DNA of 64,000 nucleotides from an uncultured Gammaproteobacteria bacterium. GTDB lineage: Bacteria > Patescibacteriota > Microgenomatia > UBA10105 > UBA927. This document shows positions 36,397-53,372 of this stretch, piece after piece. Where the stretch lies: the NCBI GenBank assembly GCA_964596355.1, contig CAZQTD010000002.1, positions 24,929 to 88,928 on the forward strand, written 5' to 3'. Position numbers and translations under genes: made by a program. Every line of letters starts with the position of its first letter. Position 1 is the stretch's first letter. Under the pieces are notes generated by a model that was given only the letters and a program-made list of their open reading frames with translations, did no database searches and had not been told where the DNA came from.

Positions 36397-37134
36397 ATGA
36401 AGGGAGTTATTCTTGCAGGCGGACTTGCGACAAGGCTTCGGCCGCTGACACTTGTTACCAACAAACACCTATTGCCCGTTTACCACAAGCCGATGATTTA
36501 TTACCCGCTTGAGGCGATGCACCGCAGCGGCATCAAAGAGGTGCTTCTTACCACATCGCCTGACCACGCGGGTCATTTTGCCAACTTGCTCAAAGCGGGC
36601 GAGGACTTTGATCTTAAGCTCTATTATGCTGTGCAGCAAAATGCCAAAGGCGGCATCGCCCAAGCAATCGCCCTTGCTCAAGAGTTTGCCAAAAACGAGT
36701 GCGTGGTTGTACTTCTTGGCGACAATATATTTACCGTGAACTTGAAGCAATCAATACAAAAAATCGAATCACAAGGCCGCGGCGCAATGGTTTTTGGCGT
36801 TCGTCGCAGCATGGATTCGAAGCAGTATGGTGTCATCGAGGTTGACGCGAACGGAAAAGTTTTGTCTATAGAAGAAAAGCCTGAACACCCCAAGAGCAAC
36901 ATCGTGCAAACGGGCATTTATGTGTATGACAGCAGGGTATTTGACTTTATCCAAAAACTTACGCCGAGCGCGAGAGGTGAGCTTGAAGTAACGGATTTAA
37001 ATAACCTCTACGTACAAGAGGGGTCATTATACTGTGAAATTATCGATTGGTGGGTTGATGCCGGAACGTCGTACGATGAGCTTCTGCGGGCAAACAACGA
37101 AGTGGCACAGATGGTAAGAGAAGGAAAGTTATGA
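36397..37134 (+). CDS. rmlA: glucose-1-phosphate thymidylyltransferase-like sugar nucleotidyltransferase (short RmlA)
   Basis: MKGVILAGGLATRLRPLT...KHLLPV is the RmlA/G1P nucleotidyltransferase signature. 245 aa, so the C-terminal oligomerisation extension is missing. Confidence 0.75.
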   Translation: MKGVILAGGLATRLRPLTLVTNKHLLPVYHKPMIYYPLEAMHRSGIKEVLLTTSPDHAGHFANLLKAGEDFDLKLYYAVQQNAKGGIAQAIALAQEFAKNECVVVLLGDNIFTVNLKQSIQKIESQGRGAMVFGVRRSMDSKQYGVIEVDANGKVLSIEEKPEHPKSNIVQTGIYVYDSRVFDFIQKLTPSARGELEVTDLNNLYVQEGSLYCEIIDWWVDAGTSYDELLRANNEVAQMVREGKL

Positions 37135-37273
37135 TTAGGAAGTAGTCTTGGAAATGCACGTTTTTTGCCTCGCGTGATGAATGCTACTGGATATCATAAC
37201 GGCAACACAAGTCCGAGGTACCATGAAACGTTAAATGCAATGCAGGGCAAAAAGCAAAACGTCACTATCTCAT

Positions 37274-37750
37274 ATGATTGATGGAGTTGCTATAAAAGAA
37301 TTGATTCGCCATCCGGACGAACGGGGATTTTTTGAAGAAATAATCAGGCGCACTGACCCCTTTTTTGCCGAGGGGTTTGGACAGCTGTCGCGGTCTTCCA
37401 TGCATCAGGGTGTTGTAAAAGCTTGGCACGTTCATAAAACGCAGATTGACTGGTGGTATCTTGTGCGGGGAATTATGAAAGTTGCCCTTTACGATACACG
37501 CAAGGAGTCAAAAACATATAAAGAACTGAATGAATTCGTTTTAGGCGAACAGGGAAAGCCTAACCGTGTATTAAAAATTCCTGCTGGGGTCGCTCACGGA
37601 TTGAAGGTGCTTGTGGGGCCTGCTGACCTTGTGTACGTTACCAGTCGTACGTATGCCAAAGACGAAGAGGGGCGCATCGCGTACGATGATCCCGGTATCG
37701 GCTATGATTGGGTGCAGGGAATACCGATTACTAATATACACGTCACATAG
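37274..37750 (+). CDS. rmlC: dTDP-4-dehydrorhamnose 3,5-epimerase
   Basis: Cupin fold with DERGFFEE...GQLSRSSMHQGVVKAWHVH typical of RmlC. Start set at MIDGV. Confidence 0.8.
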   Translation: MIDGVAIKELIRHPDERGFFEEIIRRTDPFFAEGFGQLSRSSMHQGVVKAWHVHKTQIDWWYLVRGIMKVALYDTRKESKTYKELNEFVLGEQGKPNRVLKIPAGVAHGLKVLVGPADLVYVTSRTYAKDEEGRIAYDDPGIGYDWVQGIPITNIHVT

Positions 37751-37814
37751 ATATGAATCATTTAGAGGTTGGAGGTGTGGGTTGAGAATAGTATAGAAGA
37801 TACATAATTTTTTC

Positions 37815-38804
37815 ATGAAACTTCTGGTAACCGGTGGGGCCGGATTCATCGGCTCGAACTTTATTCTGTATTGGATGGACCGTCATCCCGATGATAGCGT
37901 GGTTAATATAGACGCGTTGACGTATGCTGGCAACCTTGACAATTTGGCACCTGTTAACAATAACCCGCGATATCAATTTATTCACGGAGATATCTGTGAC
38001 GTTAATGTTGTGACCAAGGCGCTTGCGGGCGTTGATACGGTCGTTCATTTTGCGGCAGAGAGCCATGTGGATCGGTCAATTGATAAACCGTTGCCGTTTG
38101 TGATGACGAATATTGTGGGTACACACGTTCTGTTGGAGGCAGCGTTGAAGGCAAAGGTTCAGCGATTTCACCATATTTCTACGGATGAAGTCTATGGATC
38201 TCTTGAATTAGGAACATTGGATAGATTTAGTGAACGAACAAAATATAACCCCAGAAGTCCATATTCGGCGAGCAAAGCTGCTTCAGATCATTTAGTAAAC
38301 GCATACTTTCATACGTACGGTTTACCTATTACAATTACGAATTGTTCCAATAATTATGGTCCATTTCAGTTTCCGGAAAAATTCATTCCCCTTACCATTA
38401 CTAATATTCTGGAAGGCAAAAAAGCGCCTCTTTATGGAGACGGTAAACATGTGCGCGATTGGCTTTATGTATTAGATCATTGTCGCGCAATCGAGCTTGT
38501 GTTGACCAAAGGCAAGGTCGGTGAAACATATTGCGTTGGAGGGCTTACCGAAGACGTTGACAACGAGACGGTGATGAAAAAAATTCTACAGATTATGGGC
38601 AAGGATGAGTCGTTTATCGAGCGGGTGAACGACAGGCCGGGTCATGACCGACGGTACGCGATTGACTGGTCAAAAATTCACCGCGAGTTAGGGTGGCAGC
38701 CAGAGCATGATTTTGACACATGGTTAACCAAAACAGTTAAGTGGTACAAAACGCATGAGTCATGGTGGAAAAAAATCAAATCCCGTGAATATGCAAAGCT
38801 ATGA
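37815..38804 (+). CDS. rmlB: dTDP-glucose 4,6-dehydratase
   Basis: MKLLVTGGAGFIGSNF Rossmann motif and YSASKAASD catalytic YxxxK. Confidence 0.9.
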   Translation: MKLLVTGGAGFIGSNFILYWMDRHPDDSVVNIDALTYAGNLDNLAPVNNNPRYQFIHGDICDVNVVTKALAGVDTVVHFAAESHVDRSIDKPLPFVMTNIVGTHVLLEAALKAKVQRFHHISTDEVYGSLELGTLDRFSERTKYNPRSPYSASKAASDHLVNAYFHTYGLPITITNCSNNYGPFQFPEKFIPLTITNILEGKKAPLYGDGKHVRDWLYVLDHCRAIELVLTKGKVGETYCVGGLTEDVDNETVMKKILQIMGKDESFIERVNDRPGHDRRYAIDWSKIHRELGWQPEHDFDTWLTKTVKWYKTHESWWKKIKSREYAKL

Positions 38805-39685
38805 AGATATTAGGAACAGGATTATCAGGGCTTGTCGGTTCGCGCGTTGTTGAACTTCTTTCACCCCCTTGGAGTTTTGAAAACTTGAGTCTTGAAACTG
38901 GTATTGATATTACTGACAAAACGCTCGTGACGCGCTACATTGAGCAATCAGAAAGCCAGTGGGTTTTCCATTTTGCGGCAATTACTGATGTTGACGGATG
39001 TGAACAAGAAAAAGATAGAGGCCAGCAGAGCAGATCGTGGCAGGTCAACGTTGCAGCCACAGAACACATCGTTCAAGCGTGCAAGGAGACCGGAAAGCGC
39101 ATGGTGTATATTTCCACAGATTTTGTTTTTGACGGCACGAAACCGTCATATACCGAAGAAGATATTCCTAATCCTCTGAGCTGGTACGCGCTGACAAAAT
39201 ATGAAGGCGAGAAACGGGTCACTGCCTTGGGCGATCGCGGGCTTATTGTGCGCATCGCCTACCCCTATCGCGCAACAGCTGCCGGCAAGCCTGATTTTGT
39301 CCATAGAATACTTGAAAGATTACAACAGGGCAGTCCGGTGACTGCTCCAAGCGATTCGTTTATTACGCCGACGTTTATCGATGATATTGCCTATGCCTTG
39401 AAAAAACTTATATCGGCACGTTCAAGCGGCATCTATCATGTGGTTGGAGGCGCCGCGACGACTCCTTTTGAGGCGGCGCAAACGATCGCTCGCGTGTTTG
39501 AACTAGACAGTTCGCACATTACATCGATTATGCATGAAGACTATTACAAGAATCGAGCGAGGCGTCCCTTTTACGGCATACTCAAACATGATAAAATAGC
39601 GAAATTCGGTGTCGCTATGTCTACTTTGGAAGACGGGTTGCGAGCGGTACGTGAACAGGTAGGTAAGGCGCGTAAAGACGTATGA
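38801..39685 (+). CDS. rmlD: dTDP-4-dehydrorhamnose reductase
   Basis: MKILGTGLSGLVGSRV start, RmlD-like SDR with YALTKYEGE (YxxxK). 4-nt overlap with rmlB. Confidence 0.85.
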   Translation: MKILGTGLSGLVGSRVVELLSPPWSFENLSLETGIDITDKTLVTRYIEQSESQWVFHFAAITDVDGCEQEKDRGQQSRSWQVNVAATEHIVQACKETGKRMVYISTDFVFDGTKPSYTEEDIPNPLSWYALTKYEGEKRVTALGDRGLIVRIAYPYRATAAGKPDFVHRILERLQQGSPVTAPSDSFITPTFIDDIAYALKKLISARSSGIYHVVGGAATTPFEAAQTIARVFELDSSHITSIMHEDYYKNRARRPFYGILKHDKIAKFGVAMSTLEDGLRAVREQVGKARKDV

Positions 39686-40983: not shown

Positions 40984-41943
40984 ATGGTTAAGAAAAAAGT
41001 ATTCATTACCGGTATTGCCGGGTTTGTGGGGAGCCATTTGGCGGAATTGCTTCTGCATAAGGGGTTTGAAGTGTATGGACTTGTACGGCCGCGCAGCAAC
41101 ACCGATCACATTGAATCCATCATGAGCAGACTGCGGCTGGTGGACGCCGATCTAATGGACACCCACAGTCTCTATACAACCATCAATAGGATTAAGCCTG
41201 ATTTTATTTTCCATCTGGCTGCACAATCGTTCGTTCCAACATCATGGGTTTCTCCGTCGGTGACGCTGGAGGTCAATGTTGTGGGATCCGCAAACCTCTT
41301 CGAAGCGGTTAAGATGGCAAAAATAGATCCCGTCATCCAGATTGCGTGTTCTTCAGAAGAATACGGTTTGGTTATGCCCGAAGAACTGCCAATAGTGGAA
41401 ACGAACCCCCTGCGGCCGCTTTCTCCGTATGCGGTATCAAAAGTCGCAATGGATTATTTGGGATACCAGTATTACCAATCGTACAAGGTGCGAATTGTGC
41501 GGACTCGCGGGTTTAACCATACCGGTCCAAGGCGTGGAGAAACGTTTGCCGAGTCGAATTTTGCCAAGCAAATTGCGATGATTGAAAAGGGCAAACAAGA
41601 ACCGGTCGTCAGCGTCGGAAATTTGGATGCAAGCCGTGACTATACCGATGTGCGGGATATGGTGCGCGCGTACCTTTTGGCTGTTGAGAAGTGCGACCCG
41701 GGCGACGTTTACAATATCTGTTCAAATAAAACGGTCAAAATTGGCGATATGCTTAACCTTCTTGTATCATATGCAAAGGTGAAGGTGACGGTAAAGACGG
41801 ACCCCGCACGGATGCGTCCCAGCGACGTGCCGATACTTTTGGGAAGCAGCAAGAAATTTTTTGATAAAACCGGTTGGAAGCCAGAGATCCCGTTTGAAAA
41901 AACCATGGAAGATCTTCTTAATTACTGGCGGGCGAGAGTGTGA
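40984..41943 (+). CDS. NAD-dependent nucleotide-sugar epimerase/dehydratase (Gmd/UXS/ArnA-C-terminal-like extended SDR)
   Basis: VFITGIAGFVGSHLAELLL and YAVSKVAMD (YxxxK). Its position directly after ugd suggests it acts on UDP-glucuronate or a related sugar. Confidence 0.7.
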   Translation: MVKKKVFITGIAGFVGSHLAELLLHKGFEVYGLVRPRSNTDHIESIMSRLRLVDADLMDTHSLYTTINRIKPDFIFHLAAQSFVPTSWVSPSVTLEVNVVGSANLFEAVKMAKIDPVIQIACSSEEYGLVMPEELPIVETNPLRPLSPYAVSKVAMDYLGYQYYQSYKVRIVRTRGFNHTGPRRGETFAESNFAKQIAMIEKGKQEPVVSVGNLDASRDYTDVRDMVRAYLLAVEKCDPGDVYNICSNKTVKIGDMLNLLVSYAKVKVTVKTDPARMRPSDVPILLGSSKKFFDKTGWKPEIPFEKTMEDLLNYWRARV

Positions 41944-41950
41944 CGCTGCT

Positions 41951-43063
41951 ATGAATCTGGTCTTCATTCTTCCCACGTATAACGAACGGGAGAATATTGT
42001 TACGCTGCTTGAAGCGCTTAGAAAAGCGACGTCAAAAGTTAAAGGCTATACGATTACGTATCTTATCGTTGATGATAATTCTCCGGATGGCACAAAAGAT
42101 GAAGTGTTGCGGTACAAAAAAACTCACCCTACCGTTCAGGTGGTATCCGGCAAGAAAGAAGGTTTGGGCAAAGCGCTATTGCGGGGAATGAAGTATGCGG
42201 TTCATACGCTTCGTACCGACATTTTGTTTCAAATGGATGCGGACTTATCGCATGATCCCTCTAAAGTGCCGGAATTTTTAGAGCATCTGGCAAAGGGCGC
42301 GGATTTTGTCATCGGAAGCAGATACATTCCGGGAGGGTCTATACCGGACAACTGGGGAGCGCACCGAAAGCTTTTTAGCAGGGCTGGTAATGCGATCGTG
42401 CGGTTTGGGCTCGGATATCCGCATGTGCATGACTGGACAGGAGGATTTAGAGCGTTTCCCAAAAAGTATTATGAATTATTGCATGAAGAAGTTTCTCCGT
42501 ACAGCGGATACGTATTTCAAATAGCATTTTTGCACCGCGCGATTATGAAAGGCGCGCGTGTTGCCGAAGTGCCGTTTAGATTTACGGATAGACGGTTTGG
42601 CAGGTCAAAAATAGCGCCCGCCGAATATATCCGCAATGTGTTGGTATATGTGGCAAATGCCAGAATGATGCAATGCATACATGGCCCCATCGGCAAGATG
42701 CTTGTTGTGGGCGCCATAGGGTTTGTCATCAATACGATTATTCTTGAGGCCGGCGTTGCGCTGGGTTTGGATCCGACGGTTGGAAGCGCGGCAGGAGCAG
42801 AAACAGCGATTATATCGAATTTTATCCTCAACAACACGTGGACGTTTCGGGAGAGAAAAATTATCGGCATAAGATTAATCAGTAAATTCCTGCAATTTAA
42901 CGCGACGTCGTTTGGCGCGATACTCATTCAGACGGCAACAGTGTTTGCGGGCACGCGATTGTTTGGTCACGGCGTGTATCGGTTGTTTTACATGATGGGC
43001 GTGGGAATCGGTTTGGTATGGAATTTTACAATGTACGCAAAGGTCATCTGGAGAAAAAAATGA
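41951..43063 (+). CDS. GT2 polyprenol-phosphate glycosyltransferase fused to C-terminal GtrA-like domain
   Basis: Start refined to MNLVFILPTYNERENI. GT2 core with DDNSPDGT and DADLSHDP, then four C-terminal TM helices resembling the GtrA family (residues 250-370). Confidence 0.75.
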   Translation: MNLVFILPTYNERENIVTLLEALRKATSKVKGYTITYLIVDDNSPDGTKDEVLRYKKTHPTVQVVSGKKEGLGKALLRGMKYAVHTLRTDILFQMDADLSHDPSKVPEFLEHLAKGADFVIGSRYIPGGSIPDNWGAHRKLFSRAGNAIVRFGLGYPHVHDWTGGFRAFPKKYYELLHEEVSPYSGYVFQIAFLHRAIMKGARVAEVPFRFTDRRFGRSKIAPAEYIRNVLVYVANARMMQCIHGPIGKMLVVGAIGFVINTIILEAGVALGLDPTVGSAAGAETAIISNFILNNTWTFRERKIIGIRLISKFLQFNATSFGAILIQTATVFAGTRLFGHGVYRLFYMMGVGIGLVWNFTMYAKVIWRKK

Positions 43064-43067
43064 ACAT

Positions 43068-44609
43068 ATGATAGTAATATGCGGTGAGCAGAAGAAACCA
43101 TGGATGGTTCCCCTTGTGGTGGGGGTTATTCTCGCGCTTGGAGCGTATCTTCGGCTCCACAATATTGCTGGCTACATGACGTTTTTGGGTGATGAAGGAC
43201 GAGACGTCCTTGTCGTCAAACGCATGATAGTGGACCATAAATTTACGCTTCTTGGCCCCACTGCGTCAGTGGGCGGATTTTTCCTTGGACCGCTCTACTA
43301 CTACCTTATGCTTCCTTTTTTGTGGGCATGGGGGCTTAATCCTGTGGGTCCCGCCGTTATGGTTGCGCTTTTTGGTGTTGCGACGATTTACCTTGTGTAC
43401 CTGACCGGACGCGTACTGTTTGACCGGTGGGTCGGTATAATCGCTGCAAGTCTCTATGCGGTGTCTCCTTTAGTTATCGCGTACTCCCGATCATCATGGA
43501 ATCCAAACGTGGTGCCGTTTTTTGCGACGCTTCTTGTATTGTTATTGTGGAAGCTTAAACAACGCGAAACAGGACGTGTTGCCCTTGGAATCGGCGTTGT
43601 TCTCGGCATGGGACTGCAGCTCCATTATCTCTTCCTCTTTTTATTTGTACTGGTGGGTTTGTGGTATGCGGTGAGCGTTCGGCGTGCCACGCTGTTACGA
43701 CTCGTCGCTCTGACGACAGCGGGGTTCGTCATTGGGTACGCGCCGTTTCTAGCGTTTGAGGTGCGCCACGGTTTTCCTAACACGCAATCCGTGATACGTT
43801 TTGTGTTTGCGGGTAAAGAAACCGGGTATCAGGGGACAGCGTTTTTTACGACGATTTACGACATCGTGTTTAGGCTTTTTGGAAGACTTCTTTTCAGACT
43901 TCCAGATACGACCGTATGGGACAATTTCCCGCGATGGCAAATAGCCGTTTGGATCATGATCACGCGGACGACTGCTATAATAAGCAGCATTGCTTTATTC
44001 TTGCCTGTCTTTAGAAGACGCAAACAATCACAAAACTATCTCCTCCTCCTTCTGTGGTTTACTGTTCCGGTGTTTCTTTTTGGGTTTTACAAAAAGGGTA
44101 TCTATGATTATTATTTTGGCATTTTTTTTGCATTGCCGTTTCTTGCCGTTGGAATCATCGTGTCGCTCCTTATGAAAGGAAAACTTTCCCGGTGGATGGC
44201 ATTGGGACTTTGGCTGGGACTGGTATATTTTAATTGGCAGGGAAGGCCGTTTGTTCATCCTCCGAATAATCAGCTGGCGCAGGCGAGAGAAATCGCTCGT
44301 GTTGCGTATGAAAAGGCAGAGGGGCGGCCGTACAACTTTGCCTTGGTAACCAGCGGGAATTCTGATCACGCGTACCGATACTTTTTTGAACTATGGGGCA
44401 ATAAGCCAGTTACAATTGAGAATGAAAGCATTGACCCGGAAAGGAAAACCGTGACAGATCAACTCATCGTTATATGTGAAGGCGCGTGCGAGCCGCTGGG
44501 ACATCCCTTGTGGGAGATTGCTGGTTTCGGCAGAGCAGAAATCGCAGGAAGCTGGGACGTACCATTTGTCAAAATTTATAAACTCGTCCACTATAAAGGA
44601 GAATCGTGA
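43068..44609 (+). CDS. polytopic GT-C-type glycosyltransferase (ArnT/PMT superfamily-like, DEGRD motif in first loop)
   Basis: 513 aa with more than 10 TM helices and an acidic motif FLGDEGRD after TM1. Paralogous to the minus-strand gene at 62574-63842 (shared GP.YYYL block). Confidence 0.55.
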   Translation: MIVICGEQKKPWMVPLVVGVILALGAYLRLHNIAGYMTFLGDEGRDVLVVKRMIVDHKFTLLGPTASVGGFFLGPLYYYLMLPFLWAWGLNPVGPAVMVALFGVATIYLVYLTGRVLFDRWVGIIAASLYAVSPLVIAYSRSSWNPNVVPFFATLLVLLLWKLKQRETGRVALGIGVVLGMGLQLHYLFLFLFVLVGLWYAVSVRRATLLRLVALTTAGFVIGYAPFLAFEVRHGFPNTQSVIRFVFAGKETGYQGTAFFTTIYDIVFRLFGRLLFRLPDTTVWDNFPRWQIAVWIMITRTTAIISSIALFLPVFRRRKQSQNYLLLLLWFTVPVFLFGFYKKGIYDYYFGIFFALPFLAVGIIVSLLMKGKLSRWMALGLWLGLVYFNWQGRPFVHPPNNQLAQAREIARVAYEKAEGRPYNFALVTSGNSDHAYRYFFELWGNKPVTIENESIDPERKTVTDQLIVICEGACEPLGHPLWEIAGFGRAEIAGSWDVPFVKIYKLVHYKGES

Positions 44610-45358
44610 AACAACCGTTTTTGTCCATCGTCATCCCTGCATACAATGAAGAAACGAATATTCGCTTAGGCGCGCTTGATAAGGTGTCCAGGTATCTGGA
44701 GCACCAAACATACAGAAAGGAAGTTATTGTGGTTGATGACGGCTCGACCGATGCGACAGGGGATCTCCTTGACGATTTTGTCCAAACGAATAAAGACTTT
44801 CGCGTTATCCACAAGGCTCACAGTGGAAAAGCCGGCACGGTGATAGAGGGTGTGTTGGCGGCAAAAGGAGAACTGGTGCTGTTTACCGATCTAGATCAGG
44901 CAACGCCGCTTCATGAACTAGAACGTTTGCTGCCGTATTTTGCCAGCGGATATGACATTGTTATCGGTTCAAGGAATGCAAGGCGTGAAGGAGCGCCCGT
45001 TACACGCGTCATAATGGCGAAAGGATTTATGATGCTTCGCGCGCTCTTTCTGGGACTTCGAGGAATTACTGACACGCAGTGCGGATTTAAAGCGTTCCGG
45101 CGGGAAGTAGCAGTGTCAATTGTTCGAAACCTCAAGCTCTACGGACATGGCGGCCAAGCGACCGGTTCGATGGTAACCGCAGGATTTGATATAGAGGTGC
45201 TTTTTGTTGCGAAAAAAAAGAAATACAAAATTAAAGAAGTTCCTGTCGAGTGGCACTATGTGGAAACGAGGAGAGTTAGCCCGCTAAAAGATTCTTTATT
45301 CGGACTTGTGGATATGATAAAAATCCGCGTGAATGCGTGGCGGGGGCTCTATCGGTAG
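44606..45358 (+). CDS. GT2 polyprenol-phosphate glycosyltransferase (Dpm1-like)
   Basis: SIVIPAYNEE, VVDDGSTD and DLDQATP (DxD). 4-nt overlap with the preceding GT-C gene. Confidence 0.8.
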   Translation: MKQPFLSIVIPAYNEETNIRLGALDKVSRYLEHQTYRKEVIVVDDGSTDATGDLLDDFVQTNKDFRVIHKAHSGKAGTVIEGVLAAKGELVLFTDLDQATPLHELERLLPYFASGYDIVIGSRNARREGAPVTRVIMAKGFMMLRALFLGLRGITDTQCGFKAFRREVAVSIVRNLKLYGHGGQATGSMVTAGFDIEVLFVAKKKKYKIKEVPVEWHYVETRRVSPLKDSLFGLVDMIKIRVNAWRGLYR

Positions 45359-46525: not shown

Positions 46526-48028
46526 ATGGCACAACGCACGAAGATTTGGAGTTTAAGGCTGTTGTTCATAGGTGTTTTATTGCTTCTTTTTTACTTAGTC
46601 ACGAGGCTGACCAACCTTACCCAATTGCCGATATTTACCGATGAAGCAATCTATATCCGCTGGAGTCAGATAGGTTCACGCGATGCCAACTGGAGATTTA
46701 TTTCGCTTGTTGACGGCAAGCAGCCGATGTTTACGTGGATTATGATGGTTTTTTTGAAAGTTATCCGCGATCCGCTGCTGGCGGGTCGGCTGGTATCTGT
46801 TGTGAGCGGATTTGTGACGATGGCAGGGTTGGGGCTTTTGACGTTTGCGTTATTTCGAAGTGCGAAGCTGGGGTTTGTCGTCTGTACGCTGTATATACTT
46901 TCTCCGTTTGCCCTTATGTATGACCGCCTCGCACTGTACGATTCTCTGGTAGCCGCGTTTTCTGTGTGGAGTCTTTACGGCGGCGTCCTATTGGTTCGGT
47001 TATTGCGTTTGGACATCGCGCTTCTTCTGGGGATGGTATTGGGCGCGGGAATGCTCAACAAATCCTCGGGATTTATGAGCCTCTACTTTTTGCCTGTTAC
47101 GCTGGTGCTGTTTGACTGGCGTAAAAAGGAGAGAATAATGAGGTTTCTGCGATGGCTGGGTCTTGTGCTGGTTGCCGCAATCATTTCCCAGCTTCTTTAC
47201 AGCGTACTTAGACTTTCGCCGCTTCTTCATATGGTGAAACAAAAAGACGCGGTATTTGTCTATCCGTTTCACGAGTGGCTCAAACACCCTTTCAATTATT
47301 TCGTCGGCAATATACAAGGACAATTTGATTGGCTCATCCGATACATGACCATTCCGATAGCACTGCTTTCATTTATTCCAGCTGTTACTTTCTGGAAGCA
47401 CACACGCGAGAAACTCCTTCTCTACGCGTGGTGGGCAGCGCCGTTTCTTGTGCTTGCGCTGTTTGCCAGAGTCTTGTACCCCCGGTTCATTTTATTTATG
47501 GTAATGCCGCTTTACGTTTTAGCATCGATTCCTTATCTATGGATTATGGAGCGGCTTGGACATCGTCTTTGGAAAGCGGTTCTGCTGTTTCTTATCATAT
47601 TTCCGAGCGTGTTTGCCGACTTTTACATCATCGCGGATCCCAGATATGCGCCGCTCCCATTTTCCGACAAAGTTCAACTTGTAGACGACTGGCCGTCGGG
47701 ATGGGGCATTCGTGAGGTCAACGCATATCTTATAGAAGAAGCGAAAAAGGGAGAGATCGCCGTTTATACAGACGGGACGTTTGGCCTCCTTCCGTATGCA
47801 ATAGAGATGTATCTTGTTGATAACCCGCACGTAACGATAAAAGGAATCTGGCCGCTTCCCAAAGATCCGCCGGAAGAGATGATTGCGGATGCGGCCCGTA
47901 AACCGACATACATGGTATTTAATCAAACGCAGAATGTGCCGTTGTGGCCCATGGAGAAAATCAGTGAATATGCAAAAGGCAACAGCAAGGATCAAAAACT
48001 TCGCTTATATCGAATCATTGAAAAATAA
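46526..48028 (+). CDS. GT39/GT83-like (ArnT/PMT family) GT-C glycosyltransferase
   Basis: First-loop motif PIFTDEAIYIRW (the DE motif of ArnT/PMT enzymes), more than 10 TM helices, and a C-terminal soluble domain. Confidence 0.65.
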   Translation: MAQRTKIWSLRLLFIGVLLLLFYLVTRLTNLTQLPIFTDEAIYIRWSQIGSRDANWRFISLVDGKQPMFTWIMMVFLKVIRDPLLAGRLVSVVSGFVTMAGLGLLTFALFRSAKLGFVVCTLYILSPFALMYDRLALYDSLVAAFSVWSLYGGVLLVRLLRLDIALLLGMVLGAGMLNKSSGFMSLYFLPVTLVLFDWRKKERIMRFLRWLGLVLVAAIISQLLYSVLRLSPLLHMVKQKDAVFVYPFHEWLKHPFNYFVGNIQGQFDWLIRYMTIPIALLSFIPAVTFWKHTREKLLLYAWWAAPFLVLALFARVLYPRFILFMVMPLYVLASIPYLWIMERLGHRLWKAVLLFLIIFPSVFADFYIIADPRYAPLPFSDKVQLVDDWPSGWGIREVNAYLIEEAKKGEIAVYTDGTFGLLPYAIEMYLVDNPHVTIKGIWPLPKDPPEEMIADAARKPTYMVFNQTQNVPLWPMEKISEYAKGNSKDQKLRLYRIIEK

Positions 48029-48034
48029 CCCGTT

Positions 48035-49570
48035 ATGGCAAAAAAGACCGCGCATGTTCCCCTTTTTTCAATTGCCATCATTATTTTTGCCGTCTTCATT
48101 GTGCTCATTCCCCTCATCCGACGCGGTTTTTTCGTTTCCGATGACGGCGAATGGATGATTATCAGGTTATCCGCCTTCTATCAGGCGTTTCGGGAGGGGC
48201 AGTTTCCGGTCCGATTTCTCGGCAGGCTAAACAACAGTTATGGCTATCCGGTCGCAAATTTTTTGTATCCCGGGTTTTTGTATATTGGTTCCGTTTTGCA
48301 TGCGATAGGCTTCTCGTTTGTCGACAGCGTCAAACTCATTCTCGCGGGTTCGGTCATCGGCGCTACAATATTTTTGTACTTATGGCTTCGGACATTTTTT
48401 ACTCCACGCATAAGTGCCGCAGGCGTTTTAAGTTTTGTGTTTGCCCCGTACCTTCTCCATGATATGTACAAGCGGGGCTCCGTAGGTGAGGTGTTGGCGA
48501 TATGTTGGGCGGCAATGGGTTTATACGCTATCGACTCGAAAAAGTCATGGTTGTTTTCACTCGCTCTGGCACTTCTTATCGTCAGTCATAACTCATTGGC
48601 ACTTCTTTTCAGCGGGTTTTTCCTGTTGTATCTCATGTGGCTGCGGCGGATAAACGATTTTCTCTATCCATATTTGTTAGGAGTTGGGATGACAACCTTT
48701 TTCTGGTTGCCAGCGATTATTGAGCAAACCTATGTGGTTTTCCGATCTGCTACCGTAGCAAATCCATCTGAATATTTACTCAAGGGGCTCGAGATTTCGC
48801 GTGTCGGTTTGGCGTTTGTTGTCTTCGCACTCATCCTCATGATAAAACATGAGGTAAAACAACGGGTGCCTTTTTTTATTTGCGTGCTTTGTGGCATCGT
48901 TATCCTTACCCTCCCTATAAGCGCTCCGGTTTGGAAGCTTACAATTTTAAAGACATATGTGCAGTTTCCTTTTCGATTTCTTTCTCTTGGACTTTTTGTT
49001 GGGCCGTGGATCGTTGCTTTTGCCTTGCAGAGACTACGCGGGGGTTGGCGCGTGGCCGCAACAGTTCTCATCGCGATCCTGTGGCTGCATAGCGTCGGCG
49101 ATGCGTTCCGGTCAATCCGTTTTACGCAGGAGGTCGAAGGGTACTACACAACCAATGAGTCAACAACGACGGTACATGATGAATACATGCCTCGGTGGGT
49201 TGTTATGAAGCCAAAGACACGTCCGCGCGAGCGAATGGAGTTTATTAACGGAAGCGGACGGTTCGATTATAGAACAGTGAGCACTCAACTTATTGATGCG
49301 ACTGTTGACGCTCATACAGATAGTATCATTCAAATTAATACAATCTATTATCCTGGTTGGGGAGCAAGCCTTAATGACAGAAAAGTTGTTATAGATTATA
49401 ACAATGATGCGGGAGTGATGCGCATCGCTGTGCCCAAGGGAACATATCGTCTGATTGTGGCATTTCGCGAAACCGTATCGCGGTTTGCCGCAGACGTCGT
49501 TTCAATTATTGCATTCATCCTGTTTCTTGTGTACGCGAGATCTTCGCAAGTGAGGAAGTATCCGGTATGA
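48035..49570 (+). CDS. PTPS-related/YfhO-like polytopic membrane glycosyltransferase (paralog 1)
   Basis: SDDGEWMIIRLSAFYQAFREGQFPVRF...YGYPVANFLYPGF N-terminal block is paralogous to the next gene. Multi-TM with a C-terminal extracytoplasmic domain. Confidence 0.55.
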   Translation: MAKKTAHVPLFSIAIIIFAVFIVLIPLIRRGFFVSDDGEWMIIRLSAFYQAFREGQFPVRFLGRLNNSYGYPVANFLYPGFLYIGSVLHAIGFSFVDSVKLILAGSVIGATIFLYLWLRTFFTPRISAAGVLSFVFAPYLLHDMYKRGSVGEVLAICWAAMGLYAIDSKKSWLFSLALALLIVSHNSLALLFSGFFLLYLMWLRRINDFLYPYLLGVGMTTFFWLPAIIEQTYVVFRSATVANPSEYLLKGLEISRVGLAFVVFALILMIKHEVKQRVPFFICVLCGIVILTLPISAPVWKLTILKTYVQFPFRFLSLGLFVGPWIVAFALQRLRGGWRVAATVLIAILWLHSVGDAFRSIRFTQEVEGYYTTNESTTTVHDEYMPRWVVMKPKTRPRERMEFINGSGRFDYRTVSTQLIDATVDAHTDSIIQINTIYYPGWGASLNDRKVVIDYNNDAGVMRIAVPKGTYRLIVAFRETVSRFAADVVSIIAFILFLVYARSSQVRKYPV

Positions 49571-51219
49571 AAAAGATCGCAGCGGGAAGCATTCTAGTCA
49601 TTATTCTTTCGGTATGGGCAATCCGTCCAATTGCGATGCCGGGTTTTTTCCCGATGCATGACGACACCCAAGTCGGGCGCGTCATTGCCATGGGCAGAGC
49701 GCTTCGTCTGGGGCAATTCCCGGTTCGCTGGGTGCTGGATTTGGGATATGGGTACGGATATCCTATTTTTAATTTTTACGGTCCGCTCCCATACTATTTT
49801 GGAGGCGCGCTTTATGCGTTGGGTGTTCCGGGGCTTATTGCAACCAAGGCCATGTTTATCGCAGGAGTCGTTGGCGCGGGGATTGCTATGTTTGGCGCGT
49901 CTTCGGCGTTTTTGGGAGTAACCGGCGCTCTTGTTGCTGCTATTTTTTATGTGTATGCACCTTATCACGCGGTTCAAGTTTACGTGCGAGGAGCTGTCGG
50001 AGAATTTTGGTTCCTTATATTTCTACCGATCATTCTATCGGGCATAGCGAAACGCCGCGTTCTGGTTACCGGTTTGGGGCTTGCCGGAGCAATACTTTCC
50101 CATACGGTGTTAGGATATGCGACAACGCTTATGTATGTTCTCGGTGTGATGTTCGCTGCCATTGTCGCGCGCAGGGGGAGCACCGTTGACGCCGGCAGCG
50201 TGTGGCGTCTGTTGACTGCGCTTGCCCTTGCGCTGGGCGGTACTGCGTTCTTTTGGCTTCCTGCGGCAGCCGAGATGCGCTTCACAAGTGTCGTGGGCCA
50301 GGTGGGGAAGACCGCAAACTTTTCTGATCATTTTGTCTGCTTGCCGCAGTTGTGGGATTCTTTGTGGGGGTACGGCGGGTCGGCAATCGGGTGCGTTGAC
50401 GGGCTTTCGTTTAAACTTGGCAAGCTCCACAGTGTGCTGTCGCTGATAGCGGTAGCGTTGTGGTTTATTTTTGGGAGAATGCGGCATACAACGAGTTCGC
50501 GCCTCGTTTATGTATCAATGGTTGTTGCCATGATTGGTATGTTTTTTGTGCTTTCTGTAAGCGAGCCGGTATGGATGCTTATGCCTGGCTTTGCCTACAT
50601 TCAATACCCGTGGAGATTTCTAACCTACGCCATTGCTGCCGCGTCGCTTCTCGTTGGCAGCCTTTGCATCTATATAAAGCACCGCTTGATCAAGTGGGCT
50701 ACGGCAACAGTACTTTGTATATCGGTCATAGCGCTGCAGCAAAAAGTTTTCGTGCCCCAATATATCTACAGCAGAAATTTGAACGCGTTTGAATCCGATA
50801 CGTATCTTCGGTATGAGGTGTCAAAAATATCCGACGAATATTTGCCACGTGACATTATTCGGCCGAAAAGCGAGAAGCAGGTTATCCGTGATACAATACG
50901 CGGACCGGATACATCGCGGGTTAAAATTGAGAGGGATACGGATACATCGCTTCGATTTTCGATAATAACCGACAACCCGCAGGTCGTTGAGGTCATGCGG
51001 ACATATTTTCCCGGGTGGCGATATAGGGTGAATGGCAAATACGTGGAACCTATGCTGTCACACGGATTGCCGCGTCTTGCGGTCCCTGCTGGATATAGCG
51101 TGATTGAAATAGACTTTGTCGATACACCGGTTAGAACAATTGGGAACGCCGTGTCTGTCCTGACAGCGGCAGTTCTTATTACCATTTATGGGAAAAAAGC
51201 AAAAAAACCCATCACTTAA
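49567..51219 (+). CDS. PTPS-related/YfhO-like polytopic membrane glycosyltransferase (paralog 2)
   Basis: HDDTQVGRVIAMGRALRLGQFPVRW...YGYGYPIFNFYGPLPYY aligns residue-for-residue with the N-terminal block of the preceding gene. 4-nt overlap. Confidence 0.55.
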   Translation: MKKIAAGSILVIILSVWAIRPIAMPGFFPMHDDTQVGRVIAMGRALRLGQFPVRWVLDLGYGYGYPIFNFYGPLPYYFGGALYALGVPGLIATKAMFIAGVVGAGIAMFGASSAFLGVTGALVAAIFYVYAPYHAVQVYVRGAVGEFWFLIFLPIILSGIAKRRVLVTGLGLAGAILSHTVLGYATTLMYVLGVMFAAIVARRGSTVDAGSVWRLLTALALALGGTAFFWLPAAAEMRFTSVVGQVGKTANFSDHFVCLPQLWDSLWGYGGSAIGCVDGLSFKLGKLHSVLSLIAVALWFIFGRMRHTTSSRLVYVSMVVAMIGMFFVLSVSEPVWMLMPGFAYIQYPWRFLTYAIAAASLLVGSLCIYIKHRLIKWATATVLCISVIALQQKVFVPQYIYSRNLNAFESDTYLRYEVSKISDEYLPRDIIRPKSEKQVIRDTIRGPDTSRVKIERDTDTSLRFSIITDNPQVVEVMRTYFPGWRYRVNGKYVEPMLSHGLPRLAVPAGYSVIEIDFVDTPVRTIGNAVSVLTAAVLITIYGKKAKKPIT

Positions 51220-51925
51220 TGTTGTCATCCCTGTATACAACGAGGAAGCGGAGCTTGAAAAAAGCGTTAGAACGCTTCACAGATACCTTAGCAATCACTT
51301 GACTGATTTTGACTGGAGGATAATGATCGCTGATAACGCCTCGACGGATTTGACGCTTGCGATCGCCAAGCGCGTAAGCCGCACGCTTTCGCGGACTGGT
51401 GCCATTCATTTGAAAGAAAAGGGCAGAGGTCGTGCGGTGAAGCGCGTCTGGTGCACTGCCGACAGCGATATTTGCGCCTACATGGATGTAGATCTTTCCA
51501 CCGATCTTAAGCACTTTCCGCCGCTTGTCAGAAGCCTTCTTCGGGGGTATGACATTGCAATCGGCACACGAAACGCGCGCGGATCCCGCGTCTATGGTAG
51601 AGGGTTGTTGCGCACGCTGACGTCAAAAATATACATCGCTCTCATCAAATTGTTCTTTTGGGTAAACTTTAGCGACGCGCAGTGTGGATTTAAAGCCGTC
51701 ACCAGAAGAGTCGTGAAAGAAGTAATTCCTAAAATACACGACAACGGATGGTTTTTTGACTCCGAGCTTTTAATCGTGGCAGAAAAAAGCGGGTACAGAA
51801 TATATGAAGAGCCTGTTACCTGGACAGACAATCCCGGATCCACGGTGCGCGTCCTTAAAACCGCACAGGGAGACATAGAAGGGTTATATAGACTCTATAT
51901 TACTCGCCCGTGGAGACGTAAGTAG
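51188..51925 (+). CDS. GT2 polyprenol-phosphate glycosyltransferase (Dpm1-like)
   Basis: LNVVIPVYNEE, IADNASTD and DVDLSTD motifs. 32-nt overlap with the upstream gene. Confidence 0.75.
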   Translation: MGKKQKNPSLNVVIPVYNEEAELEKSVRTLHRYLSNHLTDFDWRIMIADNASTDLTLAIAKRVSRTLSRTGAIHLKEKGRGRAVKRVWCTADSDICAYMDVDLSTDLKHFPPLVRSLLRGYDIAIGTRNARGSRVYGRGLLRTLTSKIYIALIKLFFWVNFSDAQCGFKAVTRRVVKEVIPKIHDNGWFFDSELLIVAEKSGYRIYEEPVTWTDNPGSTVRVLKTAQGDIEGLYRLYITRPWRRK

Positions 51926-51926
51926 C

Positions 51927-53372
51927 ATGCAAGACATTGATATTGCTCTTGTCAAGAAGCGGTCAATTAAAGGAATTATCGCGCTGACGTCTCGGACGTT
52001 TTTTCTTCAGATCATCGCATTTAGCGCGACATTTCTTTTGACGATTTTTTTAAGCCCGCAGGTTTTTGGAATTTTTTACGTCGTAAGCGCAATCATTGCG
52101 TTTTTAGGGTACTTTTCCGATGTGGGTCTGGCCGCTGCTCTCATTCAGAAAAAGGAACAGCTCACAAAAGATGATTTAACTACGACGTTTACGATTCAGC
52201 AGATATTGGTGGGGAGCGTGGTCGTTATTGCCTTTGTTGCTTCCGGTACTGTCGGGAGATTCTATGGGCTCGATACTTCCGGCGTTTGGCTTTTCCGCGC
52301 GCTGGTTGCCGCGTTTTTTCTCTCGTCACTTAAGACCATTCCTTCTGTGCTTTTGGAGCGCGGGCTAGAGTTTAATAAACTTATCATCCCAAATATCCTT
52401 GAGACTATTGGGTTTTATGTCGTTGCGGTTCTTTTGGCATGGAGAGGATTTGGAGTGGCAAGTTTTACGTGGGCAGTTATGACGCGTGCGGTCGTCGGAT
52501 TGATTGCTATGTATGTGGTATCGCCATGGCGTGTGACATTGGGTCTTAAACGAAGCGTTGCAAAAAAATTATTACGATTTGGACTGCCGTTTCAACTTAA
52601 CTCATTTCTCGCGCTTCTTAAGGACGATCTTTTGACAGTATTTTTGGGCAAGATTCTCACGTTCAGTGAAGTAGGATATATTGGCTGGGCTAAAAAATGG
52701 GCGGAAGTGCCGCTGCGGCTGATCATGGACAGCGTCATCCGCGTGACGTTTCCGGCGTTTTCCAGACTGCAGGAGTCCAAAGCTCTGCTTGGCCGCGCCA
52801 TAGAAAAAACACTCTTCGGTGTGTCAGTAGCCATGATGCCGGTTTCCATAGGGTTGTTGTTTTTCATGCGGCCGTTTATCGCGGTAATTCCTCGTTATGG
52901 CAAATGGGAGCCTGCGGTGCTGTCGTTCTATTTTCTTGCCTTCGCCTCGGTTGTCGCGAGCCTTTCCACACCGTTGACTAACGCGCTAAATGCAGTCGGG
53001 AAGATTCGATTGACGCTTCTTCTTATGGCCATGTGGACGGTAATGACATGGATTCTGGTTACTGTTTTCGTTCGATTGTTCGGTTTTACCGGCGTCTCTG
53101 TTGCGCTATTTGCTGTTACGCTGACGATTGGATTGGTGGTGAGTCTGGCAAAGAGAATCGCGGATTTTTCTTTTTTGGCAAGTGTACGAAATCCGGTTTT
53201 CGGCGGTCTCGTCCAAGCGGCCCTTTATGGTGCTTTTATTGAAGCAATTCCACAGAAACTCCCCTGGCTGATACTGCTTGCTGCCAGCGGTGTTATACTG
53301 TATATGGGAATTGTATGGTTAATCGATAAGGACCGTATTAACAGCCTTATCGGAGATTTTTGGCACCGATGA
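51927..53372 (+). CDS. Wzx-like polysaccharide/oligosaccharide flippase (MOP superfamily)
   Basis: 481 aa with 12-14 TM helices. The N-terminal pattern (KGIIALTSRTFFLQIIAFSATFLL...DVGLAAALIQ) is typical of polysaccharide biosynthesis protein flippases. Confidence 0.75.
   Translation: MQDIDIALVKKRSIKGIIALTSRTFFLQIIAFSATFLLTIFLSPQVFGIFYVVSAIIAFLGYFSDVGLAAALIQKKEQLTKDDLTTTFTIQQILVGSVVVIAFVASGTVGRFYGLDTSGVWLFRALVAAFFLSSLKTIPSVLLERGLEFNKLIIPNILETIGFYVVAVLLAWRGFGVASFTWAVMTRAVVGLIAMYVVSPWRVTLGLKRSVAKKLLRFGLPFQLNSFLALLKDDLLTVFLGKILTFSEVGYIGWAKKWAEVPLRLIMDSVIRVTFPAFSRLQESKALLGRAIEKTLFGVSVAMMPVSIGLLFFMRPFIAVIPRYGKWEPAVLSFYFLAFASVVASLSTPLTNALNAVGKIRLTLLLMAMWTVMTWILVTVFVRLFGFTGVSVALFAVTLTIGLVVSLAKRIADFSFLASVRNPVFGGLVQAALYGAFIEAIPQKLPWLILLAASGVILYMGIVWLIDKDRINSLIGDFWHR

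What the first reader, a model, noticed from the sequence alone, without database searches (positions are those of the whole stretch)
48035..51219. Tandem PTPS-related membrane-transferase paralogs with residue-level N-terminal alignment
The two adjacent genes share an N-terminal block: SDDGEWMIIRLSAFYQAFREGQFPVRF...YGYPVANFLYPGF versus HDDTQVGRVIAMGRALRLGQFPVRW...YGYGYPIFNFYGPLPYY. They diverge elsewhere. This looks like a recent duplication followed by specialisation, perhaps in acceptor or sugar specificity, inside the glycosylation locus. The conserved DD.....R.....R.GQFPVRW...YGYP block is a candidate catalytic loop.
Basis: seen in the sequence. Interest (0 to 1): 0.55.

Follow-up and report, generated by a model that had tools for sequence, protein, structure and literature searches.

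The report
Ancient paired membrane glycosyltransferase genes
Two neighbouring genes encode related membrane sugar-transferases, but the duplication is ancient rather than recent: the pair is kept together, in the same order, across a whole class of ultra-small bacteria, as part of a large conserved cell-surface sugar-polymer gene cluster.

Summary
The two ORFs (A 48035-49570, 511 aa; B 49567-51219, 550 aa) and the quoted motifs are real. The reading "N-terminal similarity only, recent duplication" is wrong.

- **Homology:** A and B align end to end (26% identity, E 5e-35; profile-profile E 7.5e-61). Without the N-terminal block the rest still aligns (E 8e-21).
- **Age:** Synonymous sites are saturated (pS 0.77).
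- **Orthologues:** Each gene has its own ~50%-identical orthologue family in Microgenomates (Patescibacteria).
- **Synteny:** A lies directly upstream of B in 80/80 assessable genome loci. B follows A in 70/70 assessable metagenome loci.
- **Tree:** All upstream and all downstream copies form two separate clades.
- **Active site:** An invariant DD follows TM1, where GT-C catalytic motifs lie, among 47 shared invariant positions.
- **Family:** The architecture resembles a small YfhO/PF10131. The window proteins miss both Pfam thresholds.
- **Context:** The locus has three polyprenyl-phosphate-sugar-synthase-like GT2s, a Wzx flippase, six other GT-C genes and sugar-nucleotide genes.
- **Fusion:** One lineage has an in-frame A-B fusion.

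Best reading: two non-redundant extracytoplasmic GT-C enzymes of one envelope-glycan assembly line, possibly a heterodimer.

The parts
48035..49570 (+). Gene A (511 aa): upstream paralog. GT-C-fold membrane glycosyltransferase, compact YfhO/PF10131-like. No Pfam model reaches threshold.
49567..51219 (+). Gene B (550 aa): downstream paralog. GT-C-fold membrane glycosyltransferase. Most of its orthologues hit PF10131.
49567..49570 (+). ATGA overlap between the stop of A and the start of B.
   Evidence: Sequence TCCGGTATGAAAAAG. The same 4-nt overlap occurs in 56/80 related loci. The PMT_2->A junction shows it in 46/74 loci, so it is not specific to this pair.
48119..48268 (+). A, first extracytoplasmic loop (about residues 29-78) after TM1. 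Contains invariant D36, D37 (48140-48145), R44, QFPVR 56-60, GYP 70-72 and N75. Candidate catalytic and donor-binding loop.
   Evidence: Invariant in 120 orthologues and shared with B. TM1 is helix 10-28 with the KK N-terminus inside.
49636..49785 (+). B, first extracytoplasmic loop (about residues 24-73). Contains invariant H31, D32, D33 (DD at 49660-49665), R38, QFPVR 50-54, GYP 64-66 and N69.
   Evidence: A GT2 domain fused in front of a B-type unit in P0385 supports a cytoplasmic N-terminus.
50299..50436 (+). Loop present in B and absent in A (about residues 245-290). Motif HFVC..QLW.S.WG.GGS..GC.DG.SFKLGK with invariant C258 and C276. Candidate specificity determinant.
   Evidence: Invariant only in B. 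Motif found in 74/82 downstream and 1/80 upstream copies. FFWxPA-to-QxPxR spacing is 117 aa in B against 89 aa in A. This region has lower pLDDT, 72-81.
49235..49552 (+). A, C-terminal beta-sandwich (residues 401-477) followed by a terminal TM anchor (481-506) and a basic tail.
50920..51204 (+). B, C-terminal beta-sandwich (residues 452-517) followed by a terminal TM anchor (521-546) and a KKAKK tail.
44606..45358 (+). GT2, DPMS/GtrB/ArnC-like. Candidate polyprenyl-phosphate sugar synthase that makes a lipid-linked donor.
   Evidence: PF00535. Best PDB hits are DPMS 5mlz (4e-15), GtrB 5ekp (4.5e-12) and ArnC.
51188..51925 (+). GT2, DPMS/ArnC-like. Overlaps the 3' end of B by 32 nt. Candidate polyprenyl-phosphate sugar synthase.
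   Evidence: PF00535. Best PDB hits are DPMS 5mlz (9e-16) and ArnC.
41861..43063 (+). GT2 fused to a GtrA-type TM domain (full-length DPMS-like).
   Evidence: PF00535 plus PF04138. DPMS 5mlz E 1.7e-40.
51927..53372 (+). Wzx/MOP-type flippase.
   Evidence: PF13440 E 3e-49. NCBIfam MOP flippase hit.
46526..48028 (+). PMT_2-type GT-C immediately upstream of A. One of six further GT-C genes in the locus: 43068, 45367, 46526, 56015, 59342 and 62574(-).
   Evidence: Pfam. Same gene order in L002 and L004.

Best explanation
A and B are two ancient, non-redundant GT-C-fold integral-membrane glycosyltransferases. They belong to a compact YfhO/PF10131-like type: TM1, then a first extracytoplasmic loop carrying an invariant DD, then a multi-helix core, then an extracytoplasmic beta-sandwich, then a terminal TM anchor.

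Inferred mechanism:
1. Small cytoplasmic GT2 enzymes of the same operon load sugars onto a polyprenyl phosphate.
2. The lipid-linked sugar is flipped by the GtrA-type domain or the Wzx flippase.
3. On the outer face, A and B each transfer a sugar to a growing envelope glycan. The DD loop acts as the catalytic centre and the beta-sandwich helps hold the acceptor.
4. The two enzymes differ in linkage, acceptor or donor.

They work side by side as fixed consecutive members of a Microgenomates-wide glycan assembly line of about 27 kb with eight GT-C genes.

Shown: paralogy, age of the duplication, fold, conservation pattern, synteny, the fusion. Inferred: donor type, topology, catalytic role of DD, distinct specificities, nature of the acceptor.
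For: - Full-length homology.
- DD invariant in both families, 8 residues after TM1. This is the place of the DXD/DDX/DEX motif that defines GT-C enzymes (PMC5836110; PMC7801869).
- 47 shared invariant positions spread along the whole protein, so both copies are under catalytic-type constraint.
- 19 positions fixed differently in the two families, plus a loop kept in B and lost in A, consistent with specialisation.
- EL1 motif GQ[FI]P and the C-terminal beta-sandwich plus TM anchor are shared with the window's YfhO proteins. The YfhO architecture is described in PMC5836110.
- Three operon GT2s match DPMS, GtrB and ArnC best among solved structures. A GtrA domain and a Wzx flippase are present. 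[quoted passage not shown]
- The pair is obligate: 80/80 assessable genome loci and 70/70 assessable metagenome loci.
- Single ancient duplication.
- The whole locus is syntenic in other genomes.
- N-in topology is supported by a GT2-B fusion, P0385, and by the in-frame A-B fusion P0251 with a 3-residue basic linker.
Against: - There are no biochemical or genetic data for any member. PF10131 is listed as 'function unknown'.
- The window proteins themselves reach no Pfam or NCBIfam threshold.
- They have no sequence-level match to any solved structure.
- Donor, acceptor and sugar are inferred from gene context only.
- The tree is neighbour-joining without bootstrap and has short deep branches.
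Confidence: 0.72

Rival explanations
1. A and B form an obligate heterodimeric GT-C enzyme, as EmbA-EmbB or Pmt1-Pmt2 do, rather than two independent enzymes. This refines the best explanation and does not exclude it.
For: - The pair always co-occurs in fixed order.
- A true in-frame A-B fusion exists in the same order in one lineage. P0251 is 1116 aa, a continuous ORF at the orthologous locus position, seen on 2 contigs, and its halves fall in the A and B clades.
- A second lineage fuses two units. P0259 is nucleotide-identical in three assemblies.
Against: - The 4-nt overlap is equally common at the neighbouring PMT_2->A junction (62% against 70%).
- Rate co-variation was inconclusive. Raw rho for A-B is 0.72 against 0.75 for A-PMT_2. 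The partial r of 0.68 is exceeded by an unrelated pair at 0.77.
- The A-B fusion was found in only one lineage.
- Other fusions join A to a PMT_2-like unit or B to a GT2, so fusion here may only reflect a shared pathway.
- No complex model could be run.
Confidence: 0.3
2. One reading: a recent tandem duplication, now diverging outside a conserved N-terminal catalytic block.
For: Adjacent genes on the same strand. The N-terminal block is more similar (41%) than the rest (24%).
Against: - 26% identity overall.
- Synonymous sites are saturated, even in the N-terminal block (pS 0.757).
- The two orthologue families are separate.
- Upstream and downstream copies form separate clades across Gottesman-, Woese-, Shapiro- and Levyibacteria.
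- The pair is conserved in 80/80 and 70/70 assessable loci.
Confidence: 0.01
3. The acceptor is a protein rather than a glycopolymer. A and B would then be protein O-glycosyltransferases of the PMT, PglL or streptococcal Pgf type that decorate surface or pilus proteins.
For: - The flanking GT2s score best in NCBIfam against PgfS and AglJ-type enzymes of protein glycosylation pathways. All these scores are far below cutoff.
- The Wzx also matches an 'O-glycosylation flippase' model, again below cutoff.
Against: - The locus also encodes RmlABCD, UDP-glucose dehydrogenase, a GT4, several cytoplasmic GT2s and eight GT-Cs, which looks like polymer synthesis.
- The top fold match of B is the arabinan-priming AftA.
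- Nothing here discriminates firmly between the two acceptor types.
Confidence: 0.2
4. One of the two is a catalytically inactive partner, acting as an acceptor-binding or scaffold subunit as PIG-U/GAB1 does in the GPI transamidase.
For: - The review PMC8035078 speculates that small GT-Cs may need a partner for acceptor binding.
Against: Both families keep the DD and the same 47 invariant positions, including all the charged ones: R44, R60, K100, R147, E152, H185, E230, R314, E383 and R483 in A numbering. Mean column identity is equal in the two families, 54% and 55%.
Confidence: 0.06

Closest known systems
YfhO family (PF09586). GT-C enzymes genetically required for GlcNAc decoration of lipoteichoic acid in B. 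subtilis and S. aureus, and of wall teichoic acid in L. monocytogenes (PMC5836110, PMC8035078).
   Same: - GT-C fold.
- An extracytoplasmic domain lies between the last core TM and a final TM anchor.
- Shared EL1 motif (R/K).GQ[FI]P and shared C-terminal VP.G....F..T..R motif with the window's own YfhO proteins.
- Encoded next to GT2 C55-P-sugar-synthase-like genes.
- Some orthologues hit PF09586.
   Different: - Much smaller: 511 and 550 aa, against 763-775 aa for the window's YfhO proteins and a 389-aa extracellular loop in B. subtilis YfhO.
- Window A scores 13.3 bits against a cutoff of 28.5. Window B has no hit.
- The profile comparison with window YfhO is weak: E 5e-4 over 138 columns.
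- They occur as an obligate paralog pair.
Pfam PF10131 'PTPS_related' (GT-C clan CL0111, function unknown; PMC7801869).
   Same: 68/89 B orthologues and the fusions P0251, P0259 and P0385 hit it above or near threshold. [quoted passage not shown]
   Different: - Only the first ~300 of the model's 621 positions are matched. The match starts after the DD motif.
- Window A and B do not hit at E <= 0.1.
- The A family is essentially outside the model (3/91).
- The name is a misnomer. The Pfam scans reported no pterin-synthase family for either protein.
Mycobacterial cell-wall GT-C arabinosyl- and mannosyltransferases: AftA, AftB, AftD, EmbA-EmbB, MptA/B.
   Same: - Many GT-Cs act in series on one polymer using polyprenyl-phosphate monosaccharide donors.
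- Tandem paralogs EmbA/EmbB form a heterodimer (7bvf).
- The locus also has a GT87/MptA_B-family gene.
   Different: 7-14% sequence identity only. No sequence-level relationship was detected. The organism, the polymer and the sugars are all different and unknown.
Multi-component transmembrane glycosylation systems: GT-A C55-P-sugar synthase, plus a GtrA or Wzx flippase, plus a GT-C (PMC8035078).
   Same: All component types are encoded in the operon around A and B.
   Different: Known systems usually pair one GT-A with one GT-C to decorate a polymer made elsewhere. Here about three synthase-like GT2s sit with eight GT-Cs in one conserved locus, which suggests that the backbone itself is built outside the membrane.

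Membership tests
GT-C fold glycosyltransferase superfamily (Pfam clan CL0111) | Multi-spanning membrane fold superimposable on solved GT-C enzymes | tested here: met
   [not shown]
GT-C fold glycosyltransferase superfamily (Pfam clan CL0111) | DXD or modified (DDX/DEX) acidic motif in an extracytoplasmic loop, followed by hydrophobic residues (PMC5836110) | tested here: met
   A D36-D37 are 100% conserved. B D32 is 100% and D33 is 98% conserved. The motif lies 8 residues after TM1 and is followed by an amphipathic helix. The extracytoplasmic side is inferred from the basic N-termini and from the GT2-B fusion P0385.
GT-C fold glycosyltransferase superfamily (Pfam clan CL0111) | Uses a polyprenyl-phosphate-linked sugar donor | not testable with these tools
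   Context only. Three DPMS/GtrB/ArnC-like GT2s, a GtrA domain and a Wzx flippase are in the operon.
Pfam PF10131 (PTPS_related) | Score at or above the gathering threshold of 26.4 bits | tested here: not met
   Window A and B have no PF10131 hit at E <= 0.1. Among orthologues, 68/89 of B and 3/91 of A hit at E < 0.01. The B family is therefore a borderline member and the A family lies outside the model.
Pfam PF09586 (YfhO) | Score at or above the gathering threshold of 28.5 bits | tested here: not met
   Window A scores 13.3 bits, C-terminal region only. Window B has no hit. 21/89 B and 13/91 A orthologues hit at E < 0.01. hhalign against window YfhO gives E 5e-4, probability 31%.
Pfam PF09586 (YfhO) | About 13 TM helices with a large extracellular region between the last two TM helices (PMC5836110) | tested here: met
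   A beta-sandwich lies between the core and the terminal TM helix in both models: A 401-477 then 481-506; B 452-517 then 521-546. The region is about 125 aa here, against 389 aa in B. subtilis YfhO.
6-pyruvoyl-tetrahydropterin synthase (the enzyme the public name alludes to) | Sequence or fold similarity to soluble PTPS | tested here: not met
   [not shown]
Recent tandem duplicate | Low synonymous divergence; paralogs closer to each other than to orthologues | tested here: not met
   pS 0.768, so dS is undefined. Orthologues are about 50% identical, against 26% between the paralogs. Upstream and downstream copies are reciprocally monophyletic.
Heterodimeric paralogous GT-C (EmbA-EmbB or Pmt1-Pmt2 type) | The two paralogs form a physical complex | not testable with these tools
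   Indirect evidence only: obligate co-occurrence and one in-frame A-B fusion.
Multi-component transmembrane glycosylation system (PMC8035078) | GT-A C55-P-sugar synthase, flippase and GT-C encoded together | tested here: met
   GT2s at 41861, 44606 and 51188 match DPMS, GtrB and ArnC. The GtrA domain is PF04138. The Wzx is PF13440. The GT-Cs are A and B.

The most novel reading that the evidence does not exclude
A and B are the two halves of an obligate heterodimeric GT-C 'polymerase' analogous to EmbA-EmbB. It would sit at the centre of a Microgenomates-wide extracytoplasmic assembly line of eight GT-Cs fed by about three lipid-linked monosaccharide donors. That line would build a lineage-defining cell-wall glycan outside the membrane, much as mycobacteria build arabinogalactan and LAM. 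This would be a previously unrecognised envelope polymer pathway in ultra-small CPR bacteria.
Probability: 0.22. Interest if true: 0.62.

Novelty: new member of a known kind. Interest (0 to 1): 0.38.

Why it matters
Patescibacteria (CPR) have genomes of about 1 Mb, and their envelopes are almost unstudied. This locus devotes about 27 kb to sugar-nucleotide genes, polyprenyl-phosphate-sugar synthases, a flippase and eight GT-C transferases. Its gene order is conserved across the Microgenomates at about 50% protein identity. That argues for an important, lineage-wide surface glycan.

The A-B pair is a fixed core of the locus. It belongs to a large uncharacterised GT-C group: 4,919 clusters at 50% identity below E 1e-30. 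Public records label its members 'hypothetical' or use a misleading pterin-synthase name.

This work gives that group a fold, a candidate active site (the DD in EL1 plus a defined set of shared invariant residues) and candidate specificity positions. Those make it directly testable, and they correct the annotation. As it stands this is a solid but unsurprising extension of the GT-C/YfhO theme, not a new kind of system.

Tried and rejected
Synonymous sites are saturated (pS 0.768), so dS is undefined.
- **Sequence searches against the PDB.** Single sequences and the B-family profile gave no meaningful hit. Only fold comparison links the proteins to known structures.
- **NCBIfam** on A and B gave nothing.
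- **AFDB fold search.** The library was not available.
- **The 4-nt stop/start overlap as evidence for a complex.** Rejected, because the neighbouring PMT_2->A junction shows it about as often (46/74 against 56/80).
- **Mirror-tree rate correlation** among five operon genes in 60 genomes. It was inconclusive.
- **Gene conversion** as the cause of the higher N-terminal identity. Rejected, because that block is also saturated at synonymous sites (pS 0.757).
- **Gene-calling or frameshift artefact** for the fusions. Rejected for P0259, whose ORF is nucleotide-identical in three assemblies. Unlikely for P0251, a clean 3,351-nt ORF with no vestigial stop or start at the junction, seen on 2 contigs.
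- **Literature searches** for PF10131 or PTPS-related proteins, and for CPR envelope GT-C genes, found no characterisation of this family or pair.
- **Spatial clustering of invariant residues.** Model coordinates were not exposed, so I could not measure it.
Full report
**Observation.** A is 48035..49570 (511 aa) and B is 49567..51219 (550 aa). They are joined by an ATGA stop/start overlap. The quoted peptides are present verbatim.

The N-terminal block is real: A12-92 against B8-86 gives 40.7% identity, E 1e-14. The claim that the genes diverge elsewhere fails. BLASTP aligns the proteins end to end (26% identity over 546 columns, E 5e-35). After removing the N-terminal block, the remaining ~460 residues still align at 24% identity, E 7.7e-21. 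That is 99.8 bits, against 18.7 +/- 2.4 for shuffled sequences. Each third of the remainder is significant on its own. Profiles of the two orthologue families align over 487 columns with E 7.5e-61.

**Age of the duplication.** Each gene has its own orthologue family at about 46-67% identity in Patescibacteria of the Microgenomates group. Named sources are Gottesmanbacteria, Woesebacteria, Shapirobacteria and Levyibacteria.

I fetched 82 non-redundant loci around B-type genes: 80 from species-representative genomes, plus L002 and L004. A paralog lies immediately upstream on the same strand in 80 of them. The other two are cut off by contig ends. In the reciprocal test, 70 of 70 assessable metagenomic A-type loci have a B-type gene downstream. 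It is adjacent in 68 and within 1.5 kb in 2.

A midpoint-rooted neighbour-joining tree places all 82 downstream copies in one clade. All 80 upstream copies fall in the other, together with two extra Levyibacteria paralogs. Synonymous sites between A and B are saturated, with pS 0.768 overall and 0.757 inside the N-terminal block. dN/dS is therefore undefined, and recent gene conversion of the N-terminus is excluded. The duplication is single and old, and both the pair and its order have been kept ever since.

**What the proteins are.** Neither window protein reaches a Pfam or NCBIfam threshold. A has a 13-bit YfhO C-terminal hit and B has nothing. Neither the proteins nor the B-family profile match any PDB sequence.

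Among orthologues, 68/89 of the B family and 3/91 of the A family hit PF10131. 21/89 and 13/91 hit YfhO, PF09586. PF10131 belongs to the GT-C clan and is listed as of unknown function (PMC7801869). Its name is a misnomer.

**Architecture and candidate active site.** Both models show the following, in order:
- a basic N-terminus and TM1;
- a ~50-residue loop containing the invariant DD (A D36-D37; B D32-D33) followed by an amphipathic helix;
- a multi-helix core;
- a C-terminal beta-sandwich;
- a final TM helix and a basic tail.

[quoted passage not shown] In GtlB the equivalent aspartates are essential (PMC5836110; PMC7801869).

Conservation is not confined to that loop. 47 positions are invariant in both families with the same residue. 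In A numbering they include D36, D37, R44, QFPVR56-60, GYP70-72, K100, PY138-139, RGxVGE147-152, H185, FFWxPAxxE222-230, W300, QxPxR310-314, EYxP383-386, PGW440-442 and R483. Both copies therefore look catalytically competent.

Read directly, the EL1 motif (R/K)xGQ[FI]P and the C-terminal motif VPxG....F..T..R plus TM anchor are also present in the window's two YfhO proteins. B. subtilis YfhO likewise has its large extracellular region between the last two TM helices. A and B are best described as compact YfhO/PF10131-like GT-Cs. The profile match to the window YfhO is nonetheless weak (E 5e-4), and there is no match to the PMT_2 proteins.

**Specialisation.** 19 positions are invariant in both families but carry different residues. 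B also carries a ~25-40-residue extracytoplasmic loop, HFVC..W..WG.GGS..GC.DG.SF..GK, with two invariant cysteines that A lacks. The motif is found in 74/82 downstream copies and 1/80 upstream copies. It is retained in early-branching A-clade sequences (L067_up and the N-half of P0251). That suggests loss in A rather than gain in B (inference, weakly supported).

**Context and mechanism.** The surrounding operon encodes, in order:
- RmlABCD (36397-39685);
- UDP-glucose dehydrogenase, then an SDR-family sugar-nucleotide dehydratase/decarboxylase-like enzyme (40984);
- GT2+GtrA (41861);
- PMT_2 (43068);
- GT2 (44606);
- GT87/MptA_B (45367);
- PMT_2 (46526);
- A and B;
- GT2 (51188);
- Wzx (51927);
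- three GT2s;
- YfhO (56015), GT4, YfhO (59342) and a GT2;
- a PMT_2 on the opposite strand (62574).

The same order recurs in other genomes. The GT2s at 41861, 44606 and 51188 match dolichol-phosphate mannose synthase, GtrB and ArnC best among solved structures. All three of those are polyprenyl-phosphate sugar synthases.

**Do A and B act together physically?** A profile search of 1.84 billion representatives found 4,919 clusters below E 1e-30. It also turned up multi-unit proteins.

P0251 (1116 aa) is an in-frame fusion. Its N-half falls in the A clade and its C-half beside the B clade. The halves are joined by '...LLLAFF-RKR-IFGWTLAAV...'. The ORF is a clean 3,351 nt with no vestigial stop or start. 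It sits at the orthologous locus position and is seen on two contigs.

P0259 (1093 aa) fuses two units and is nucleotide-identical in three assemblies. Chisholmbacteria carry an A-type unit fused to a PMT_2-like extension, followed by a separate B-type gene. P0385 fuses a cytoplasmic GT2 domain in front of a B-type unit. These fusions support the N-in/C-in topology and a close functional coupling among the operon's transferases. Paralogous GT-C heterodimers have precedent among the fold hits: Pmt1-Pmt2 in 6p2r and EmbA-EmbB in 7bvf.

The evidence for a dedicated A-B complex is limited, however. The 4-nt overlap is as frequent at the PMT_2->A junction (62%) as at A->B (70%). Rate co-variation was inconclusive. 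The A-B fusion is known from one lineage only. I put the heterodimer at about 0.3.

**Comparison and novelty.** The pair works like known extracytoplasmic GT-C transferases: YfhO, GtlB and Csd in Firmicutes, and Aft, Emb and Mpt in mycobacteria. By fold and motif it belongs to the GT-C superfamily. It does not formally pass the PF10131 or YfhO thresholds, and the A family is effectively unmodelled.

I found no publication on this family or pair. Public records call the proteins 'hypothetical' or 'PTPS-related'. I rate it a new member of a known kind. What is new is the obligate, order-preserved paralog pair and the conserved eight-GT-C locus in Microgenomates.

**Verdict.** The GT-C and catalytic-loop ideas are supported. 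The 'recent duplication' and 'diverge elsewhere' claims are refuted.

Noticed in passing
window 36397-63842: A ~27-kb envelope-glycan locus: RmlABCD, UDP-glucose dehydrogenase, an SDR-family sugar-nucleotide dehydratase/decarboxylase-like enzyme, three DPMS/GtrB/ArnC-like GT2s, Wzx, several further GT2s, a GT4 and eight GT-C genes (3 PMT_2, 1 GT87/MptA_B, A, B, 2 YfhO). For the stretch held in the related loci (from the RmlD-like gene to the second YfhO) the gene order is identical in other Microgenomates genomes (L002, L004), at only about 50% protein identity.
   Followed up: partly
L166 10001-13351 (P0251); L167 10001-13282 (P0259): Natural in-frame fusions of two units of this family. P0251 is an A-clade unit plus a B-clade unit from a 58% GC lineage. 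P0259 is two B-side units from a 36.5% GC lineage, preceded by a third, separate 564-aa unit.
   Followed up: yes
P0355 (3329 aa, 6 matched stretches) and P0386 (1670 aa, 4 stretches, C-terminal DUF3105): Very long proteins containing several tandem units of this GT-C family. I did not check whether they are real multi-enzyme polypeptides or gene-calling artefacts, because their DNA could not be looked up.
   Followed up: partly
P0385 (826 aa); L170 10001-12712 (P0404, 903 aa): Other fusion types. P0385 is a cytoplasmic GT2 domain fused in front of a B-type unit. P0404 is an A-type unit with a ~380-aa PMT_2-like C-terminal extension. The P0404 type recurs in Chisholmbacteria and is seen on 20 contigs.
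   Followed up: partly
L080 2710-4387 and L081 2678-4343: Levyibacteria carry a third paralog of the family about 4 kb upstream of the A-B pair. It branches near the root of the tree.
   Followed up: partly
L055 9191-10732: In one Woesebacteria MAG the A-type gene is split into two overlapping ORFs just upstream of an intact B. This could be a frameshift, a pseudogene or an assembly error.
   Followed up: no
L006-L085 record titles: Many contigs that carry this Microgenomates-type locus are titled 'uncultured Gammaproteobacteria bacterium' (TPA_asm binchicken and SRP co-assemblies), and one is titled 'Bacteroidia bacterium' (L085). These are probably placeholder or erroneous organism labels.
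   Followed up: no
cluster of P0040: The 90%-identity cluster of a 547-aa Woesebacteria B orthologue also lists 55-aa members, one of them annotated as a Cyanophage P-RSM1 hypothetical protein. This looks like a clustering artefact.
   Followed up: no
window 49445-49447 (A Y471) and 50230-50232 (B A222): The window's A has Tyr where 99% of orthologues have His, in the beta-sandwich motif 'G.H.L.A.FRET'. The window's B has Ala where 97% have Gly. All strictly invariant positions are intact.
   Followed up: no
window 35161-36147: A CAP/cysteine-rich secretory protein family domain protein (PF00188, E 2e-21) lies just upstream of the sugar-nucleotide genes.
   Followed up: no
window 41861 and 55150 ORF starts: The longest-ORF starts (TTG at 41861, ATG at 55150) overlap the preceding genes by 83-89 nt. 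The true starts are probably further downstream.
   Followed up: no
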